This document shows positions 33,453-54,828 of a DNA stretch of 64,000 nucleotides, piece after piece (within the stretch, counting starts at the first letter, position 1; every line of letters begins with the position of its first letter). The stretch is from assembly GCF_009914755.1 (NCBI RefSeq), contig NC_060934.1. One strand, 5' to 3'. The notes under the pieces were generated by a model. That model was given only the letters and a program-made list of their open reading frames with translations. It ran no database searches and was not told the origin of the DNA. Source of the stretch: the human T2T-CHM13v2.0 reference genome, Homo sapiens. The position numbers and the translations under genes are program-made.

Positions 33453-34844
33453 TCAGCGCTGTGTTCCCGTGGGCATCTCGGGCCATGACGTCCACCCCGT
33501 CAGGAGCTGCTCCAGGACCACATTCCCCTTGCGGCAGGCCAGATGGAGTGCCGTGCAGCCGTCTCCCTCCCCACAGGTCTCGTTCACCTCCTCACGGGAG
33601 CCATGTGCCAGCAGCAGGATGGCTGTCTGCAGGTCCTCATCAGTGGTGGCCCGCAGCAGCTGCTGGCCCAGGGACAGCTCAGTGCAGGGTAGTGGGGCCA
33701 GAAAGAGCTTCTCCTCATATTTGGAACGGATCCACCATTCCTTCTCTTCCCTCGTGGACTTTATTGAGGGTTTTGTCTGCCCCTGGCTGCTCCCTTCCCA
33801 GATGCTGTTGGCTAGCTCATTGCCAATAGATGACATAACCTTCCTGAGCTCAACTGGCCAGTCATCCAGCTCCAGAGATCGCACACGGGAAAGGCGGGTG
33901 CCAAAACTGCGGTGGATACCTGAGCATTCAATACACATGAGGACTCCCAAGTTCAAACTGGCCCACTTAGGATTCTGGGTCTCACAGTCCACACAGTGGG
34001 CGTTCCCACGCATGTTTTGGATCGACTGCAGGGCCATGGCCTCACTCTGGCTGGTCAGCTGGGACTTGCTTTTACTGCTCTTGCATGACTGCAGGCTGGC
34101 CAGGATCTGGCTCTGGATGGCTTGGACCCAGGCATCCCGCTCCTCATACGTCGTGGCTTCAAAGTGCCACGTTTGGCCAGTGGCAGACACAATCATAAAG
34201 TTGTTGGTGCTTTTCTTCTTTAGGTGTTTCTTTTTATTGGCATGAGGAGAGGGGGGCGGGTTGAGCTTGGGGCTGGTGGTGCTGGAGATACCGGGGCTGA
34301 AGCATATGGAGTCACCCAGCCCGGTGTCCATGTCCTTGGATAGGCCATTGCTTTTAGAGCTGGAGATGGGTGCACAGGCTGATGTGGCTAGGGATGGCCA
34401 CTTTCCTGGGACTTTGATGGTAGATGTCCGAAGGTCAATCTCTTTTTTATGAATATTCTTCATATAATCACCTAAGCTTGAATAATAGGTGAGCACGCCA
34501 TTGGAACACAGGGTGACGTATTTCTTTTTCCATGTCTTCAGCCATTTTCCACTTCGCTTTAAGAGCATGCCCTGTTTAATGGGGATGGCTCTGCCGCTCC
34601 CGATGGTGTCAGCATGATTCTCCGGGGCTTTCCTCTCTTTGTCTGGGTCACTCCCTTTCTCAGATGTAAACAGGTTGGACCAGCGCATGGACCGCTTGCA
34701 AACGGGGGTGGGTGTGTTGGCAGTGGGAGGAACACTGAACTGAGGGTCCTCCTGGCTGGTGCTGGGAGTCGGTGGAATGGAGGAGGAATAGTTATTTAAA
34801 CTCCCACCTCCATTTCTTTTCTTCATAATGTGCACGGTGGAAAC
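33453..34844 (-). CDS. AGAP9: AGAP terminal exon (PH-ArfGAP-ANK, intronless AGAP1-derived)
   Basis: Single 1.4-kb exon, [14 protein letters not shown]...[15 protein letters not shown]. Confidence 0.92.
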
Positions 34845-52800: not shown

Positions 52801-54828
52801 TTTAAATAGAAGAGCTATAAGACATTTCCTCTAGAGTAATGAAATCTCTGGCATTTAAATGAAACCAATAAGCCAACTGGATTTAATATGTTTATGATGC
52901 AATGTTTTCTATTTTGAAAATTTCAGTTTTTATTCAAGAACCATATTATTACCCAGAATTACTTTTACTTAGATTCATCTCTTTGCAAAATTTTAGAGGC
53001 AAACCAACTAATTGTTTTCTGTTTTCTACCGGCTCCCATCCCCTGCCTCTGCCAACAGTGTAGAGACTAAAAAACTCCAACTCTTTCCTTTTTTTTTTGT
53101 GAGACGGAGTCTCGCTCTGTCACCCAGCCTGGAGTGCATTGGCGTGATCTCTGCTCACTGCAACCTCCACCTCCCAGGTCCAAGCAATTCTCCCGCCTCA
53201 GCCTTGTGAGTAGCTGGAACTACAGTCATGCGCCACTACGCCCAGCTAATTTTTGTATTTTCTTTTTTAGTAGAGACAGCGTTTCACCATGTTGGCCAGG
53301 CTGGTCTCGAACTCCTGACCTCAGGTGATCCGCCTGCCACAGCCTCCCAAAGTGCTGGGATTACAGGCGTGAGCCACCAAGCCCAGCCAAAACTGTAACT
53401 TTCTTATCTTTGAACAAGATGCTATTGTCAGGAGGGGAAGGGACAAAGGGGGAGCCACGGCAACAAACACTCTTACAGGGAAGTCTGACATTTTAACCTG
53501 CAATCTTTATATTACACATTAAAAGTCTACGTTGACGTTTCATGTCTTTTGAAAGTTTTGACCGTGAACCAATCCCCACCTCTCTTTTAGAACAAGGAGG
53601 TAAATAAAGTCTGTTAAGTCACCAGAATAAATCTGGAGACACATTTTCTGTTAAAGTAAGAATTTTAAAGTAATCAGAGCCTCATAGGTAAACTCCTTTG
53701 AGAAACCCCAAACACACACACACAACCATTTTTCTGCAGCCCCGGCTGTGACATTTTATACCTTTCACAATTATTTTAAGCACTCTCCTTTTTTCTTTTT
53801 CCTTCTGTGTTCAAATTACAGTTAGAAGAAACTAAGCAGCTTCTATCAAGGTGACTTAAAGCAGCCCATTAAGAATACCATATAGCCTCTCCCGTGGCAA
53901 CCTCCATTCTGATTTTAAATAAGAAATCCCCAAATATTTGAATAGGAACTGTCCTGAGATTTGGCTACTTTAACAAAGGAAACAATTAGGCACTTACCTG
54001 GTTCCTTCACTTAGGTACCATCTGGATAGGTTCAAAGAAAAATTAAGATGGGTACTGAAAAGTTGGGATATTTGAGTTTTTATTGAGAAAAGGAAGAGAA
54101 TAGCTCAAAGAAGCCTAAACAAAGTCCCACAGGATAATAAACAGAGCTACAGACACTGTTGTCTCACCATCTGTTTGAGAGTTCCTCTGGAATATTGTGC
54201 TTGCCTCTGGATTGGCAGAAAGGTTAAACTCCAAAGCTATATGTATAGAGGGAGAAAAGAAAAAGGACGTAATCATTTATAAAAATTTATCAACTCATTT
54301 ATTCAACTGCTGCTTATTCGACAAGAGCCATAAATAAATGGTCCCATGCCAGCCTGGGAGAATGAGATGAGAGAGCAAGAACTGGGCGATTGGGAGGGGA
54401 GGTGAAAAGAAACTGACTGGACTCGGTGGGGAAAGACTAAGGGGTGGGAATTCAAGGCAGAGCCAGCTTTTGTTCCTGGCCAGCCCCCGGGAAAGCTGGC
54501 TACAAGCAGAAAGGAGCTCGAAGTGTGGGATGCCTCAAAGGGAACCTTGGGGACAGCAGCAGCCAGAGGCAAACCGAGGGTAGATGGCACCTATCACCTC
54601 CTTACCTTCAGGCATCTCCCGGTCACGAACCTGGTGCATGTGGAGGTCCTCACCAACTTCAACAGTCACCTCAGCAGGCTGTACAGCAGCAGCCATGGGC
54701 GCTCCTGCCATCCTGTCCTCAGCTCCTGCCTCATAGATCTCAGATTCAGAGGGACACACCGACCCCTGCTGCTGGTCAAACTCGAGGCTGACGCTAGGGT
54801 GCACACGACAGGTCAGTATGTTCCCCAT
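33453..54828 (-). CDS. AGAP9: ArfGAP with PH and ankyrin domains, AGAP4-9/centaurin-gamma-like paralog (658 aa), AGAP9-like
   Basis: Exons 54606-54828, 54168-54236, 51801-51869, 49125-49159, 41472-41572, 38849-38884, 35490-35541 and 33453-34844 total 1977 nt, open throughout, all GT-AG. Contains a split PH domain, an ArfGAP zinc finger CVDC-x16-CIEC-x4-R and ankyrin repeat sequence. Confidence 0.9.
34945..35267 (+). mobile_element. Alu with TSD AAAGATACATTTTCTG
   Basis: Alu consensus; TSD on both sides. Confidence 0.9.
35490..35541 (-). CDS. AGAP9: AGAP exon 7
   Basis: [17 protein letters not shown]; donor GTAAGT. Confidence 0.88.
36067..38450 (+). mobile_element. Charlie1-like hAT DNA transposon remnant interrupted by several Alus
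   Basis: Starts CAGTGGTTCTCCAAATGTGCTCTGTGGACC, resembling the Charlie1 terminus. Confidence 0.55.
38849..38884 (-). CDS. AGAP9: AGAP exon 6
   Basis: [13 protein letters not shown]. Confidence 0.88.
39188..39540 (-). mobile_element. Alu right-arm fragments
   Basis: Alu consensus. Confidence 0.8.
41472..41572 (-). CDS. AGAP9: AGAP exon 5
   Basis: [33 protein letters not shown]. Confidence 0.88.
41850..42159 (+). mobile_element. AluY-like
   Basis: CpG-rich young Alu. Confidence 0.9.
42218..42542 (-). mobile_element. AluY-like
   Basis: CpG-rich young Alu with (TTTA)n tail. Confidence 0.9.
43642..45940. mobile_element. L1PB-type LINE-1 with 5' inversion (antisense 43642-44659, sense 44660-45940), Alu inserted at ~44338-44633
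   Basis: ORF2 RT fragment ([18 protein letters not shown]...[10 protein letters not shown]), L1PB-like 3' end and A-rich tail. Confidence 0.85.
46048..46262 (-). mobile_element. Alu fragment
   Basis: Alu consensus. Confidence 0.8.
48571..48873 (-). mobile_element. Alu
   Basis: Alu consensus. Confidence 0.9.
49125..49159 (-). CDS. AGAP9: AGAP exon 4
   Basis: [12 protein letters not shown]; donor GTAAGT. Confidence 0.88.
49719..50014 (-). mobile_element. Alu
   Basis: Alu consensus. Confidence 0.9.
50306..51015. mobile_element. MaLR (MST/THE1) LTR with nested Alu (50488-50787)
   Basis: tgatatgttttggat...gagccaattaaacctctttt...ataaattacccag. Confidence 0.7.
51801..51869 (-). CDS. AGAP9: AGAP exon 3 (69 nt, copy B)
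   Basis: [23 protein letters not shown]. Confidence 0.85.
52015..52163 (+). mobile_element. Alu monomer
   Basis: Alu-like sequence with poly-A. Confidence 0.75.
53089..53387 (-). mobile_element. Alu
   Basis: Alu consensus. Confidence 0.9.
54168..54236 (-). CDS. AGAP9: AGAP exon 2 (69 nt, copy A)
   Basis: [23 protein letters not shown]. Confidence 0.85.
54606..54828 (-). CDS. AGAP9: AGAP exon 1
   Basis: [14 protein letters not shown]...QVRDREMPE; donor GTAAGG. Confidence 0.9.

What the first reader, a model, noticed from the sequence alone, without database searches (positions are those of the whole stretch)
33453..54828. The AGAP paralog appears to be a chimeric gene: cyclin-Y-like 5' exons fused to an AGAP1 retrocopy
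Seen: seven small exons (223, 69, 69, 35, 101, 36, 52 nt) encode MGNILTC...IYEA...DREMPE [29 protein letters not shown]...[13 protein letters not shown]...[27 protein letters not shown], followed by one 1392-nt exon carrying the whole PH-ArfGAP-ANK region. Knowledge (recalled): CCNYL1/CCNY read MGNTLTCC...IYEA...[47 protein letters not shown]...[15 protein letters not shown]...CVTLAIYYHIKNRDANRSLDIFDERSH, collinear with these exons, and CCNY has internal exons of 35/101/36 nt. AGAP1 encodes the PH-ArfGAP-ANK region over many exons and has a GTPase-like N-terminal domain that is absent here. Inference: a duplicated CCNYL-type gene (CCNYL2 lies on 10q11) captured an L1-retroposed AGAP1 cDNA in the intron before its cyclin box. 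The result would be a primate-specific fusion family in which a cyclin Y targeting/regulatory N-terminus replaces the GTPase-like domain. The gene name 'ArfGAP with GTPase domain' hides this origin.
Basis: partly seen in the sequence, partly recalled or inferred. Interest (0 to 1): 0.88.

Follow-up and report, generated by a model that had tools for sequence, protein, structure and literature searches.

The report
Cyclin-Y-like / AGAP1 retrocopy fusion gene

Summary
The eight annotated exons splice cleanly into a 658-aa ORF. Exons 1-7, their introns and at least 7 kb upstream are a DNA-level duplicate (about 89% identity) of cyclin-Y-like loci at C10:43.30 Mb and C10:38.2 Mb. The exon sizes 69/35/101/36/52 nt are the same as in the chr2 cyclin-Y-like locus. 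The 1392-nt terminal exon is collinear with ten separate exons spread over about 325 kb of the chr2q37 AGAP1 locus.

Details found here:
- The cDNA copy spans window 34913-31731. It is cut off at its 5' end just after the GTPase-like domain.
- It is spliced through a cryptic acceptor 69 nt inside itself.
- It has no poly(A) tail and no target-site duplication.
- Its 3' junction coincides with loss of about 1.9 kb of host intron, including the first cyclin-box exon.
- All 10 chr10 copies share both junctions.
- A chr9 fossil retrocopy crosses the exon 7/8 junction.

Baertsch et al. 2008 (PMC2584115) already described CTGLF1/AGAP4 as a cyclin gene that gained a CENTG2 (AGAP1) retrocopy.

The parts
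54941..62401 (-). Upstream (promoter-side) sequence inherited from the cyclin-Y-like host gene
   Evidence: Collinear with C10:43.33 Mb up to window 60352, where my fetch of that locus ended. Collinear with C10:38.21 Mb up to window 62401, again the end of the fetch. Identity is 83-92% by block.
54606..54940 (-). Exon 1 (coding 54606-54828): cyclin-Y-like N-terminus starting MGNILTC
   Evidence: One search gives the translation. One search matches cyclin-Y-like loci at C10:43331743 (62%, E=3.7e-20) and C2:208186098 (47%, E=1.1e-7); 8 of 8 fetched AGAP exon-1 copies start MGNILTC.
54153..54313 (-). 162-nt dispersed duplicate that carries exon 2 (54168-54236, 69 nt)
   Evidence: 92.6% identical to 51786-51947. 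It is absent at the matching point of the C10:43.3 Mb locus, where the chain has a gap at 54155/54323.
51801..51869 (-). Exon 3 (69 nt), the original copy of the ALE.N.S...ASTIF..SQTD exon
   Evidence: homologous exon of the same size in the C10:43.3 Mb and chr2 loci.
49125..49159 (-). Exon 4 (35 nt)
   Evidence: a 35-nt exon with the same splice sites in the chr2 locus. The C10:43.3 Mb copy is 36 nt.
41472..41572 (-). Exon 5 (101 nt), [13 protein letters not shown] motif
   Evidence: the only PDB hit is Cyclin-Y 9r2i_D residues 100-125, E=0.004; a 101-nt homologue in both cyclin-Y-like loci.
38849..38884 (-). Exon 6 (36 nt)
   Evidence: a 36-nt homologue in both loci.
35490..35541 (-). Exon 7 (52 nt), the last host exon; it ends on a codon boundary
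   Evidence: The chr9 fossil retrocopy joins its last 39 nt directly to exon 8.
34914..35489 (-). Host-derived part of intron 7, with a later antisense Alu at about 34945-35260 flanked by a direct repeat
   Evidence: One search shows the sequence; 35472-35263 and 34944-34914 align to the C10:43.3 Mb locus (local 42150-41930 and 41947-41917), which has no Alu at this site.
31731..34913 (-). AGAP1-derived processed cDNA copy, cut off at both ends and interrupted by later Alus
   Evidence: ten coding-exon blocks and three 3'UTR blocks, collinear with C2:236288610-236615376; the chr1 full-length AGAP1 processed pseudogene aligns from window 34912 to 31731.
34845..34913 (-). First 69 nt of the cDNA copy (AGAP1 linker after the GTPase-like domain), now intronic; it ends in the cryptic acceptor ...TGTTCCACACAG
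   Evidence: it aligns to the linker of the chr1 pseudogene, which carries a similar pyrimidine-rich ...CAG at the same point; present in 10 of 10 chr10 copies.
33453..34844 (-). Coding part of the terminal exon: linker, split PH, ArfGAP (C-x2-C-x16-C-x2-C-x4-R intact), partial ankyrin repeats; a private 7-bp deletion shifts the frame of the last residues
   Evidence: Searches give the domains. Searches give the motif; the 7-bp deletion is absent from 9 of 9 other chr10 copies.
32735..33036 (-). Alu inserted into the copied AGAP1 3'UTR, flanked by the direct repeat CATGGCACCTCT
   Evidence: One search shows the sequence; the AGAP1 3'UTR alignment resumes on the far side, with a 14-nt overlap.
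32041..32650 (-). Further Alu sequence inserted into the copied 3'UTR
   Evidence: the AGAP1 3'UTR blocks 32727-32651 and 32040-31731 are contiguous in AGAP1. The hub table lists a masked repeat at 32031-32652.
30535..31736 (-). Remnant of host intron beyond the 3' junction; the cyclin-Y-like homology ends at 30534/30535
   Evidence: it aligns to both C10 paralogues (84-92%) and the chain has the same lower limit in both; split match at the junction.

Best explanation
AGAP9 is one copy of a chimeric gene that arose once and was then amplified by segmental duplication on chromosome 10.

Shown here:
- A DNA-level duplicate of a cyclin-Y-like (CCNYL2-type) gene supplies the promoter side and coding exons 1-7.
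- An intron-less copy of AGAP1 cDNA sits in the intron after exon 7, at window 34913-31731.
- The copy starts in the linker just after the GTPase-like domain.
- It is joined to exon 7 through a cryptic acceptor 69 nt inside the copy. That acceptor keeps the AGAP1 reading frame.
- The 3' end of the copy has no poly(A) tail. It abuts host intron about 1.9 kb further on, so the first cyclin-box exon is missing.
- The duplicon ends before the remaining cyclin-box exons.

Inferred:
- The cDNA arrived by LINE-mediated retroposition. A later deletion at a short microhomology then removed its tail, the poly(A) and the cyclin-box exon. This left the retrocopy as the only available terminal exon.
- The protein is an ArfGAP (split PH, zinc-finger ArfGAP with arginine finger, partial ankyrin repeats) whose GTPase-like domain is replaced by a cyclin-Y-type N-terminus.
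- The Gly2 myristoylation motif (MGNILTC) of that N-terminus may tether the protein to membranes. It cannot bind CDKs because the cyclin box is absent.

I put the origin at about 0.95. I put the membrane-tethered active ArfGAP reading at about 0.5.
For: Splicing and ORF.

Host part:
- tblastn collinearity with two cyclin-Y-like loci.
- Collinear chain covering window 30535-60352 and a second chain with C10:38.2 Mb.
- 18,202 non-Alu positions at 89.2% identity.
- Identical exon sizes and splice sites in the chr2 locus.
- Cyclin-Y is the only PDB hit for exon 5 and for the neighbouring cyclin-box exon of the C10:43.3 Mb locus (E=2.3e-8).

Retrocopy:
- 9 collinear protein-level exon hits in C2:236.29-236.61 Mb. 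These are stronger than the hits at the chr7 and chr12 AGAP loci.
- 10 coding and 3 UTR DNA blocks.
- The 5' end aligns to the linker of a full-length chr1 processed pseudogene that reads through the G domain.

Junctions:
- 100-nt 3' junction probe: full-length in 10 of 10 chr10 copies. AGAP1 and the chr1 pseudogene match only positions 1-50. Six cyclin-Y-like loci match only positions 45-100 (48-100 for one, C16:39080919) (18 matches in all).
- 5' junction probe: only the 10 chr10 copies.

Loss of the cyclin box:
- The exon is present in the C10:43.3 Mb locus between the two junction points.
- It was found at 8 genomic places, none of them in the 10 AGAP duplicons.
- A cDNA-like probe from a chrX cyclin-Y-like processed pseudogene hits only exons 1, 2, 3 and 5 in the window. 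Its cyclin-box half hits nothing at E<=0.05.

Germline-expressed fusion mRNA: the chr9 copy aligns to spliced CDS positions 547-1463 without intron 7. Its 39 nt before the junction match exon 7 at 30/39. They match AGAP1-type upstream sequence at only 8-9/39.

Function:
- MGNILTC in 8 of 8 exon-1 copies; ArfGAP motif intact in AGAP9 and 6 other chr10 copies out of 10.
- Cyclin Y is reported to be membrane-targeted through myristoylation at Gly2 (passages in PMC8250429, and PMC3590450).

Published: Baertsch 2008, Table 2 and text passages.
Against: Against retroposition as the mechanism: there is no poly(A) tail and no target-site duplication at either junction. The evidence for an RNA intermediate is therefore only the absence of introns.

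Against a conserved protein function:
- The N-terminal exons show no purifying selection against the C10:43.3 Mb paralogue (dN 0.171, dS 0.149, ratio 1.15, 188 codons).
- With the chr2 locus as outgroup, AGAP9 carries 28 private nucleotide and 17 private amino-acid changes. The paralogue carries 4 and 2 (258 nt, 83 codons; the 35-nt exon and exon 1 were left out).
- Among the 10 chr10 copies the terminal exon shows 31 synonymous and 65 non-synonymous events, a ratio of about 0.62. This differs only weakly from neutral (binomial p=0.0375).
- 3 of 10 copies have lost a zinc-binding Cys or the arginine finger.
- AGAP9 itself has a private 7-bp deletion that replaces the C-terminal ankyrin part.
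- Ankyrin Pfam matches are below threshold.

Myristoylation, localisation and GAP activity were not and cannot be tested here. The names AGAP1, CCNYL1 and CCNYL2 for the unnamed loci rest on map position (Table 1 of PMC11534156; table in PMC8474217) and on recall.
Confidence: 0.9

Rival explanations
1. The AGAP1-derived segment was not retroposed into the cyclin-Y-like intron. It was copied as DNA from an existing AGAP1 processed pseudogene elsewhere, for example during break repair or a small duplicative transposition, which leaves no poly(A) tail or target-site duplication.
For: Both ends are truncated, there is no poly(A) and no target-site duplication, and the 3' junction has 3-6 nt of microhomology. 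Old AGAP1 processed pseudogenes do exist. The chr1 copy covers all of window 34912-31731 and more.
Against: The chr10 copy is closer to the AGAP1 exons (87.8% over 1365 nt) than to the chr1 pseudogene (83.0% over 1313 nt). Only 23 of 1239 sites are shared by AGAP9 and chr1 against AGAP1. Of these, 13 are third codon positions, as expected from AGAP1's own later changes. A later deletion explains the missing tail equally well, and it also explains the loss of the host exon. No other donor copy was identified.
Confidence: 0.1
2. The origin is as described, but this copy, and perhaps the whole family, is a transcribed and decaying chimera with no selected protein function. The open frame persists only because the copies are young and homogenised by gene conversion.
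For: The N-terminal dN/dS ratio is about 1.15, with 17 versus 2 private amino-acid changes. The ratio among paralogues is about 0.62, with p only 0.0375. 3 of 10 copies lack a key ArfGAP residue. AGAP9 has a private frameshifting 7-bp deletion. Table 1 of PMC11534156 lists five of the ten chr10 copies as pseudogenes and one as non-coding. Baertsch's Table 2 notes in-frame stops in rhesus.
Against: All 10 chr10 copies keep the roughly 448-codon frame without stops. Non-synonymous changes are fewer than neutral expectation. The MGNILTC start is kept in 8 of 8 copies. AGAP9 versus AGAP1 gives dN/dS 0.32, though that figure includes the constrained AGAP1 branch. The family has persisted since before the chr9 fossil copy was made.
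Confidence: 0.4
3. AGAP9 is an ordinary DNA-level paralogue of AGAP1 that lost its introns and its GTPase-like domain, and the N-terminal likeness to cyclin Y is chance.
For: The gene name and the ArfGAP nomenclature paper group it with AGAP1-3.
Against: There is no AGAP1 intron sequence. Ten exons spread over about 325 kb are fused seamlessly. The 5' part shares introns, exon sizes and upstream sequence with cyclin-Y-like loci. The junction probe matches the two parents in separate halves.
Confidence: 0.01

Closest known systems
CTGLF1/AGAP4 as described by Baertsch et al. 2008 (BMC Genomics 9:466, PMC2584115): a 'Type I exon acquisition' retrogene with parent CENTG2 (AGAP1) and a cyclin gene as host
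   Same: It is the same event. AGAP9 (formerly CTGLF6) is a paralogue that shares both host/cDNA junctions with all other chr10 copies. Their passages say that a CENTG2 retrocopy added the PH, ArfGap and ankyrin domains to the C-terminus of a cyclin gene, and that it is present in human, chimpanzee, orangutan and rhesus but not marmoset.
   Different: The passages I read do not give the junction coordinates, the internal cryptic acceptor, the lack of poly(A) and target-site duplication, the loss of the first cyclin-box exon, the exon-2 duplication or the chr9 fossil retrocopy. I did not open their additional files, which may hold some of this.
AGAP1 (CENTG2), chr2q37
   Same: The linker, split PH, ArfGAP and ankyrin region is collinear at 81-94% DNA identity per exon block. 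The zinc-finger and arginine-finger motif is conserved.
   Different: There is no GTPase-like domain and no introns. dS to AGAP1 is 0.29 and dN is 0.093. The C-terminus of this copy is frameshifted.
Cyclin Y family (CCNY, and the chr2 and chr10 cyclin-Y-like loci)
   Same: N-terminal exons, exon sizes and phases, introns and upstream region are shared. The Gly2 start motif is shared with the C10:43.3 Mb locus.
   Different: No cyclin box anywhere in the window, so no cyclin-type CDK binding is expected. The retained exons have diverged much faster than those of the paralogue.
Other host-gene/retrocopy fusions such as TRIMCyp in monkeys, PIPSL in hominoids and jingwei in Drosophila
   Same: A processed cDNA lands in or next to a gene and is spliced to host exons, which shuffles domains.
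   Different: Here the fusion was followed by amplification to about ten copies as the core of pericentromeric segmental duplications (PMC11534156).

Membership tests
[quoted passage not shown] | N-terminal GTP-binding-protein-like domain | tested here: not met
   0 blastn and 0 tblastx hits in the window for the G-domain part of a chr1 AGAP1 processed pseudogene; the cDNA copy begins in the linker after that domain; no Ras- or Roc-type Pfam hit in exon 1 or the terminal exon.
AGAP subfamily | Split PH domain followed by an ArfGAP zinc-finger domain with an arginine finger | tested here: met
   PH 1.5e-10 in two stretches, ArfGap 1.2e-36. Centaurin-gamma-1 PH (2rlo) 1.1e-38 in two stretches. 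C-x2-C-x16-C-x2-C-x4-R intact in AGAP9.
AGAP subfamily | C-terminal ankyrin repeats | tested here: inconclusive
   the Ank, Ank_2 and Ank_4 matches are all below their curated cut-offs; a private 7-bp deletion shifts the frame of the last repeat region in this copy.
Cyclin Y family | Cyclin box | tested here: not met
   no window hit to the cyclin-box half of a cDNA-like probe at E<=0.05; the first cyclin-box exon is found at 8 genomic places and in none of the 10 AGAP duplicons; it lies in the roughly 1.9 kb that the window lacks.
Cyclin Y family | Cyclin-Y-type N-terminal region with the same exon-intron structure | tested here: met
   exon-by-exon collinearity, exon sizes 69/35/101/36/52 nt, and a Cyclin-Y PDB hit for exon 5.
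Cyclin Y family | N-terminal myristoylation at Gly2 | not testable with these tools
   The motif MGNILTC is present. The modification itself is known for cyclin Y only from the literature.
Processed retrocopy (LINE-mediated) | Parent exons joined without introns | tested here: met
   ten AGAP1 exons from C2:236288610 to 236613757 are contiguous in window 34822-33382.
Processed retrocopy (LINE-mediated) | 3' poly(A) tail and flanking target-site duplication | tested here: not met
   the copy ends inside the AGAP1 3'UTR and directly abuts host sequence with 3-6 nt of microhomology. No direct repeat flanks it.
Chimeric retrogene / exon acquisition (Type I of Baertsch 2008) | Host promoter and exons spliced in frame to a retrocopy-derived exon, with evidence of the spliced transcript | tested here: met
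   in-frame GT-AG splicing; the chr9 fossil copy preserves the exon 7/8 junction. Transcript evidence for the modern gene comes from the hub's RefSeq table and from Baertsch's Table 2, not from data I analysed.

The most novel reading that the evidence does not exclude
The fusion was not a passive exon capture. A single deletion at a short microhomology removed the retrocopy's poly(A) end together with the first cyclin-box exon, so every transcript from the cyclin-Y-like promoter had to end in the AGAP1 copy. The cyclin-Y-like N-terminus then changed under positive selection rather than drift (17 private amino-acid changes against 2 in the paralogue), while keeping its lipid-anchor start. That would have produced a new membrane-tethered ArfGAP in catarrhines. 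The chr9 fossil retrocopy of the fused mRNA would be a dated snapshot of its early state.
Probability: 0.25. Interest if true: 0.45.

Novelty: already known. Interest (0 to 1): 0.22.

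Why it matters
The chromosome 10 AGAP genes form the core of duplications that drive structural variation at 10q11.22 (PMC11534156). 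They carry a name that promises a GTPase domain they do not have. Knowing that they are cyclin-Y-like/AGAP1 chimeras changes what one would predict for the proteins: no G-domain regulation, no CDK binding, and possibly lipid anchoring. This includes base-level junctions, the cryptic acceptor and the deleted cyclin-box exon. It also includes proof of a single origin for all ten copies, a fossil retrocopy of the fused mRNA, and signs of fast, weakly constrained evolution.

Tried and rejected
- Pfam on exon 1 found nothing, and the PDB search with exon 1 found nothing at E<=10. Exon 1's cyclin-Y likeness rests on the genome search.
- A DNA search of the genome with window 34800-34913, meant to find the AGAP1 exon upstream of C2:236288610, returned only the 10 chr10 copies. 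The origin of those 91 nt was settled through the chr1 processed pseudogene instead. The AGAP1 exon itself was not located.
- Rebuilding a continuous AGAP1 partial CDS from splice-site combinations failed at one junction, between the exons ending at C2:236458516 and starting near C2:236526331. I dropped this and projected AGAP1 exon blocks onto AGAP9 coordinates instead. Codons with gaps were skipped in the dN/dS counts.
- My first three-way exon comparison had off-by-one coordinates and is void. One search replaces it, but omits exon 1 (indels) and the 35-nt exon (36 nt in the paralogue).
- tblastx between the chr2 locus and the window was too noisy to use for exon finding, because weak similarity runs through the introns. 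The chrX processed-pseudogene probe replaced it.
- The C10:38.2 Mb locus looked closer to the host part at the junction (98% versus 95% over 56 nt). Over its full length it is no closer than C10:43.3 Mb. Neither can be named the direct parent.
- I ran no structure or complex prediction. The question was one of origin and did not need it.

Full report
**Observation.** On the minus strand the annotated coding parts of AGAP9 measure 223, 69, 69, 35, 101, 36, 52 and 1392 nt. Every intron has a GT donor and an AG acceptor. The joined frame is 1977 nt, giving 658 aa plus a stop. Pfam finds a split PH domain, an ArfGap domain (1.2e-36) and sub-threshold ankyrin matches in the terminal exon, and nothing in exon 1. 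PDB sequence matches agree: the Centaurin-gamma-1 PH domain (2rlo) at 1.1e-38 and ArfGAP domains from 1.2e-32.

**The 5' part is a cyclin-Y-like gene.** The window's own genome could be searched. Exon 1 (74 aa) gave 14 matches:
- nine AGAP-type copies on chr10 at 93-100% identity, one of them partial;
- three chr10 loci at 62-64% (C10:43331743, C10:38219951, C10:39048473);
- one locus on chr2 (C2:208186098, 47%, E=1.1e-7);
- one on chr19 (44%, with one stop).

A tblastn of the first 200 residues against 75 kb around C10:43.3 Mb and 60 kb around C2:208.2 Mb found exons 1, 2/3, 5 and 7 in order in both. At the DNA level, window 30535-60352 forms one collinear chain with C10:43300547-43336384. 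The chain covers the introns and more than 5 kb upstream of exon 1. Re-aligned without Alus, 18,202 positions are 89.2% identical (K2P 0.118). A second paralogue at C10:38.21-38.25 Mb is equally distant and shares the same lower limit at window 30534.

In the chr2 locus the homologous exons measure 69, 35, 101, 36 and 52 nt, followed by a 120-nt exon, with splice sites in the same places. The family label comes from the PDB. Exon 5 has Cyclin-Y (9r2i_D, residues 100-125, E=0.004) as its only hit. The next exon of the C10:43.3 Mb locus matches Cyclin-Y residues 160-198 at E=2.3e-8. Calling the chr2 locus CCNYL1 is recall. A table in PMC8474217 gives CCNYL2 as 10q11.21, and matching it to the C10:43.3 Mb locus is my inference from position.

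**The terminal exon is a processed AGAP1 copy.** The 463-aa translation matched 10 intron-less chr10 copies. It also matched nine separate collinear exons between C2:236288612 and C2:236610161. Matches at chr7:152.3 Mb and chr12:57.7 Mb were weaker. These positions fit AGAP1, AGAP3 and AGAP2 in Table 1 of PMC11534156.

At the DNA level, window 34822-33382 is collinear with ten exon blocks at 81-94% identity. The copied 3'UTR continues at 33370-33037, 32727-32651 and 32040-31731. It is interrupted by an Alu flanked by the repeat CATGGCACCTCT and by further Alu sequence. About 900 nt of the AGAP1 3'UTR (C2:236613757-236614663) are missing here, although the chr1 pseudogene has them.

**Junctions.** Host homology runs down to window 34914. 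From 34912 the sequence aligns to a chr1 AGAP1 processed pseudogene. Upstream of that point, the pseudogene reads through the GTPase-like domain and linker.

The cDNA copy therefore starts at about 34913, in the linker after the G domain. Its first 69 nt are now intronic. The acceptor of the terminal exon (...TGTTCCACACAG|GTTTCC) lies inside the copy and keeps the AGAP1 frame. The chr1 pseudogene has a similar pyrimidine-rich ...CAG|GT at the same place, so the site probably pre-existed in the cDNA.

At the 3' end, AGAP1 homology stops at 31731, in mid-3'UTR. AGAP1 and the chr1 copy both continue beyond this point. Host homology resumes at 31736. There is no poly(A) tail and no target-site duplication.

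The two junction points are about 1.9 kb apart in the C10:43.3 Mb paralogue (local 41917 and 40048). That interval holds an Alu and the first cyclin-box exon.

A 100-nt probe across the 3' junction gave 18 matches:
- all 10 chr10 AGAP copies over its full length;
- AGAP1 and the chr1 pseudogene over positions 1-50 only;
- six cyclin-Y-like loci over positions 45-100 only (48-100 for one, C16:39080919).

The 5' junction probe matched only the 10 chr10 copies. The fusion therefore arose once.

**What is missing.** The G-domain part of the chr1 pseudogene has no blastn or tblastx match in the window. The first cyclin-box exon occurs at 8 places in the genome, none within an AGAP duplicon. A cDNA-like probe from a chrX cyclin-Y-like processed pseudogene gave these results:
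- 11 collinear matches covering the 10 exons of the chr2 locus (two of the matches fall in exon 1);
- the cyclin-box exons of the C10:43.3 Mb locus, at local 41044-40904, 36544-36233 and 27447-27286;
- in the window, only exons 1, 2, 3 and 5.

The next cyclin-box exon of the paralogue lies beyond the end of the duplicon.

**A fossil of the fused mRNA.** A chr9 segment (C9:85800245-85801234) aligns to the spliced AGAP9 CDS from position 547 to 1463. The alignment runs straight across the exon 7/8 junction without intron 7. Its 39 nt before the junction match exon 7 at 30/39 and the paralogue's exon at 29/39. They match AGAP1-type upstream sequence at only 8-9/39. It is a truncated retrocopy of the chimeric transcript. 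This shows that the fusion was spliced this way and expressed in the germline long ago.

In the three-way comparison over 848 sites, 67 changes are private to AGAP9, 35 are private to chr9, and 32 separate AGAP1 from both. That excess over the 9 of 771 sites seen with chr9, chr1 and AGAP1 fits a shared stem for AGAP9 and chr9. Using recalled primate neutral rates, the 4% private branch of chr9 suggests roughly 30 million years. This is a rough inference. It fits Baertsch's presence in rhesus and absence in marmoset and the catarrhine origin stated in PMC11534156.

**Selection.**
- Terminal exon against AGAP1: dS 0.29, dN 0.093, ratio 0.32.
- The AGAP9 lineage carries more private changes than either pseudogene (117 against 82 for chr1), including at third positions (59 against 27). 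This points to an elevated substitution rate in the duplicon.
- Among the 10 chr10 copies there are 31 synonymous and 65 non-synonymous events, a ratio of about 0.62 (binomial p=0.0375). Pairwise ratios range from 0.29 to 1.0.
- 3 of 10 copies have lost a zinc-binding Cys or the arginine finger. AGAP9 keeps both.
- AGAP9 has a private 7-bp deletion, absent from 9 of 9 other copies, that shifts the frame of the last ankyrin region.
- N-terminal exons against the C10:43.3 Mb paralogue: dN 0.171, dS 0.149.
- Polarised with the chr2 locus, AGAP9 has 28 private nucleotide and 17 private amino-acid changes, against 4 and 2 in the paralogue (258 nt).
- The start MGNILTC is kept in 8 of 8 copies.

**Mechanism.** Shown: promoter and exons 1-7 come from a cyclin-Y-like duplicate. 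The terminal exon comes from an AGAP1 cDNA copy through an internal acceptor. There is no G domain and no cyclin box.

Inferred: retroposition was followed by a deletion that removed the tail and the next host exon. The protein is an ArfGAP whose N-terminus may be myristoylated at Gly2, as reported for cyclin Y (passages in PMC8250429 and PMC3590450). The fast divergence of the N-terminus and the damaged copies leave decay as a serious rival for function.

**Novelty.** Baertsch et al. [quoted passage not shown] They describe CTGLF1 as a cyclin gene that received PH, ArfGap and ankyrin domains from a CENTG2 retrocopy, with mouse AK132782 as the ancestral form. I read the Table 2 rows and text passages only, not the additional files. 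CTGLF1 is AGAP4 and CTGLF6 is AGAP9.

Term searches of two AGAP papers found no mention of this origin. In the 2024 duplicon paper 'cyclin' and 'CCNY' gave no hits, and the two 'retro' hits shown were both 'retrograde'. In the 2008 ArfGAP nomenclature paper 'cyclin' gave no hits and both 'retro' hits were 'retrograde'. Further searches for CCNYL2 and for AGAP4/5/6 with retrogene or retrocopy brought up no other paper on the origin among the listed titles and abstracts. The finding is a correct rediscovery. The added anatomy is modest.

Noticed in passing
L032 3245-4234 (C9:85800245-85801234): Truncated retrocopy of the spliced chimeric AGAP mRNA. It runs from 39 nt of cyclin-Y-like exon 7 straight into exon 8, at 79% identity over 992 alignment columns. 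It retains a 27-nt stretch that AGAP9 lacks, and it ends against LINE-like sequence.
   Followed up: partly
L033 about 2400-6690 (C1:178941400-178945690): Near full-length AGAP1 processed pseudogene. It includes the GTPase-like domain, has stops and frameshifts, and continues past the point where the chr10 copy ends. A further AGAP-like fragment with stops lies at C4:68653963-68654193.
   Followed up: partly
window about 33495-33500: AGAP9 in this assembly has a private 7-bp deletion relative to 9 of 9 other chr10 copies, located where two AGAP1 exons join. It replaces the last part of the ankyrin region with a short out-of-frame tail.
   Followed up: yes
L036, L038, L041 (C10:74.55, 46.71 and 47.24 Mb): Three of the ten chr10 copies have lost a canonical ArfGAP residue: a zinc-binding Cys to Tyr in one, and the arginine finger to His or Cys in the other two.
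   Followed up: partly
L015 (C10:43323745-43323780) and L013 (around C10:43304780): In the cyclin-Y-like paralogue at C10:43.3 Mb the 35-nt exon is 36 nt long, from one extra A in an A-run. An Alu also sits exactly at the donor site of the exon homologous to AGAP9 exon 7. Both suggest that this paralogue is itself damaged.
   Followed up: no
C19:30466438-30501430: A further intron-containing cyclin-Y-like locus on chr19. It has exon-1, cyclin-box-exon and intron matches spread over 35 kb. Other fragments lie at C10:39048473, C16:39.08 Mb, C1:226661313 and C19:21889968.
   Followed up: no
L017-L022 (C2:208184001-208244000) versus window 30548-40085: The chr2 cyclin-Y-like locus shares weak but collinear similarity with the window and the chr10 loci through the introns, not only the exons. 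This suggests a DNA-level duplication origin for the chr10 cyclin-Y-like genes.
   Followed up: no
window 33453-34844 versus L032/L033: The chr10 AGAP lineage has accumulated about 1.4-1.9 times more private substitutions than two presumably neutral pseudogene copies, also at third codon positions. This is consistent with raised mutation or gene-conversion rates in this duplicon.
   Followed up: partly
L043 (C23:64246001-64251000): A processed pseudogene of a cyclin-Y-like gene on chrX, with one in-frame stop in the stretch read. I used it as a cDNA-like probe.
   Followed up: partly
window 33370-33382: About 900 nt of the AGAP1 3'UTR (C2:236613757-236614663) are absent from the copy in the window but present in the chr1 pseudogene. 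I did not check whether all chr10 copies share this gap.
   Followed up: no
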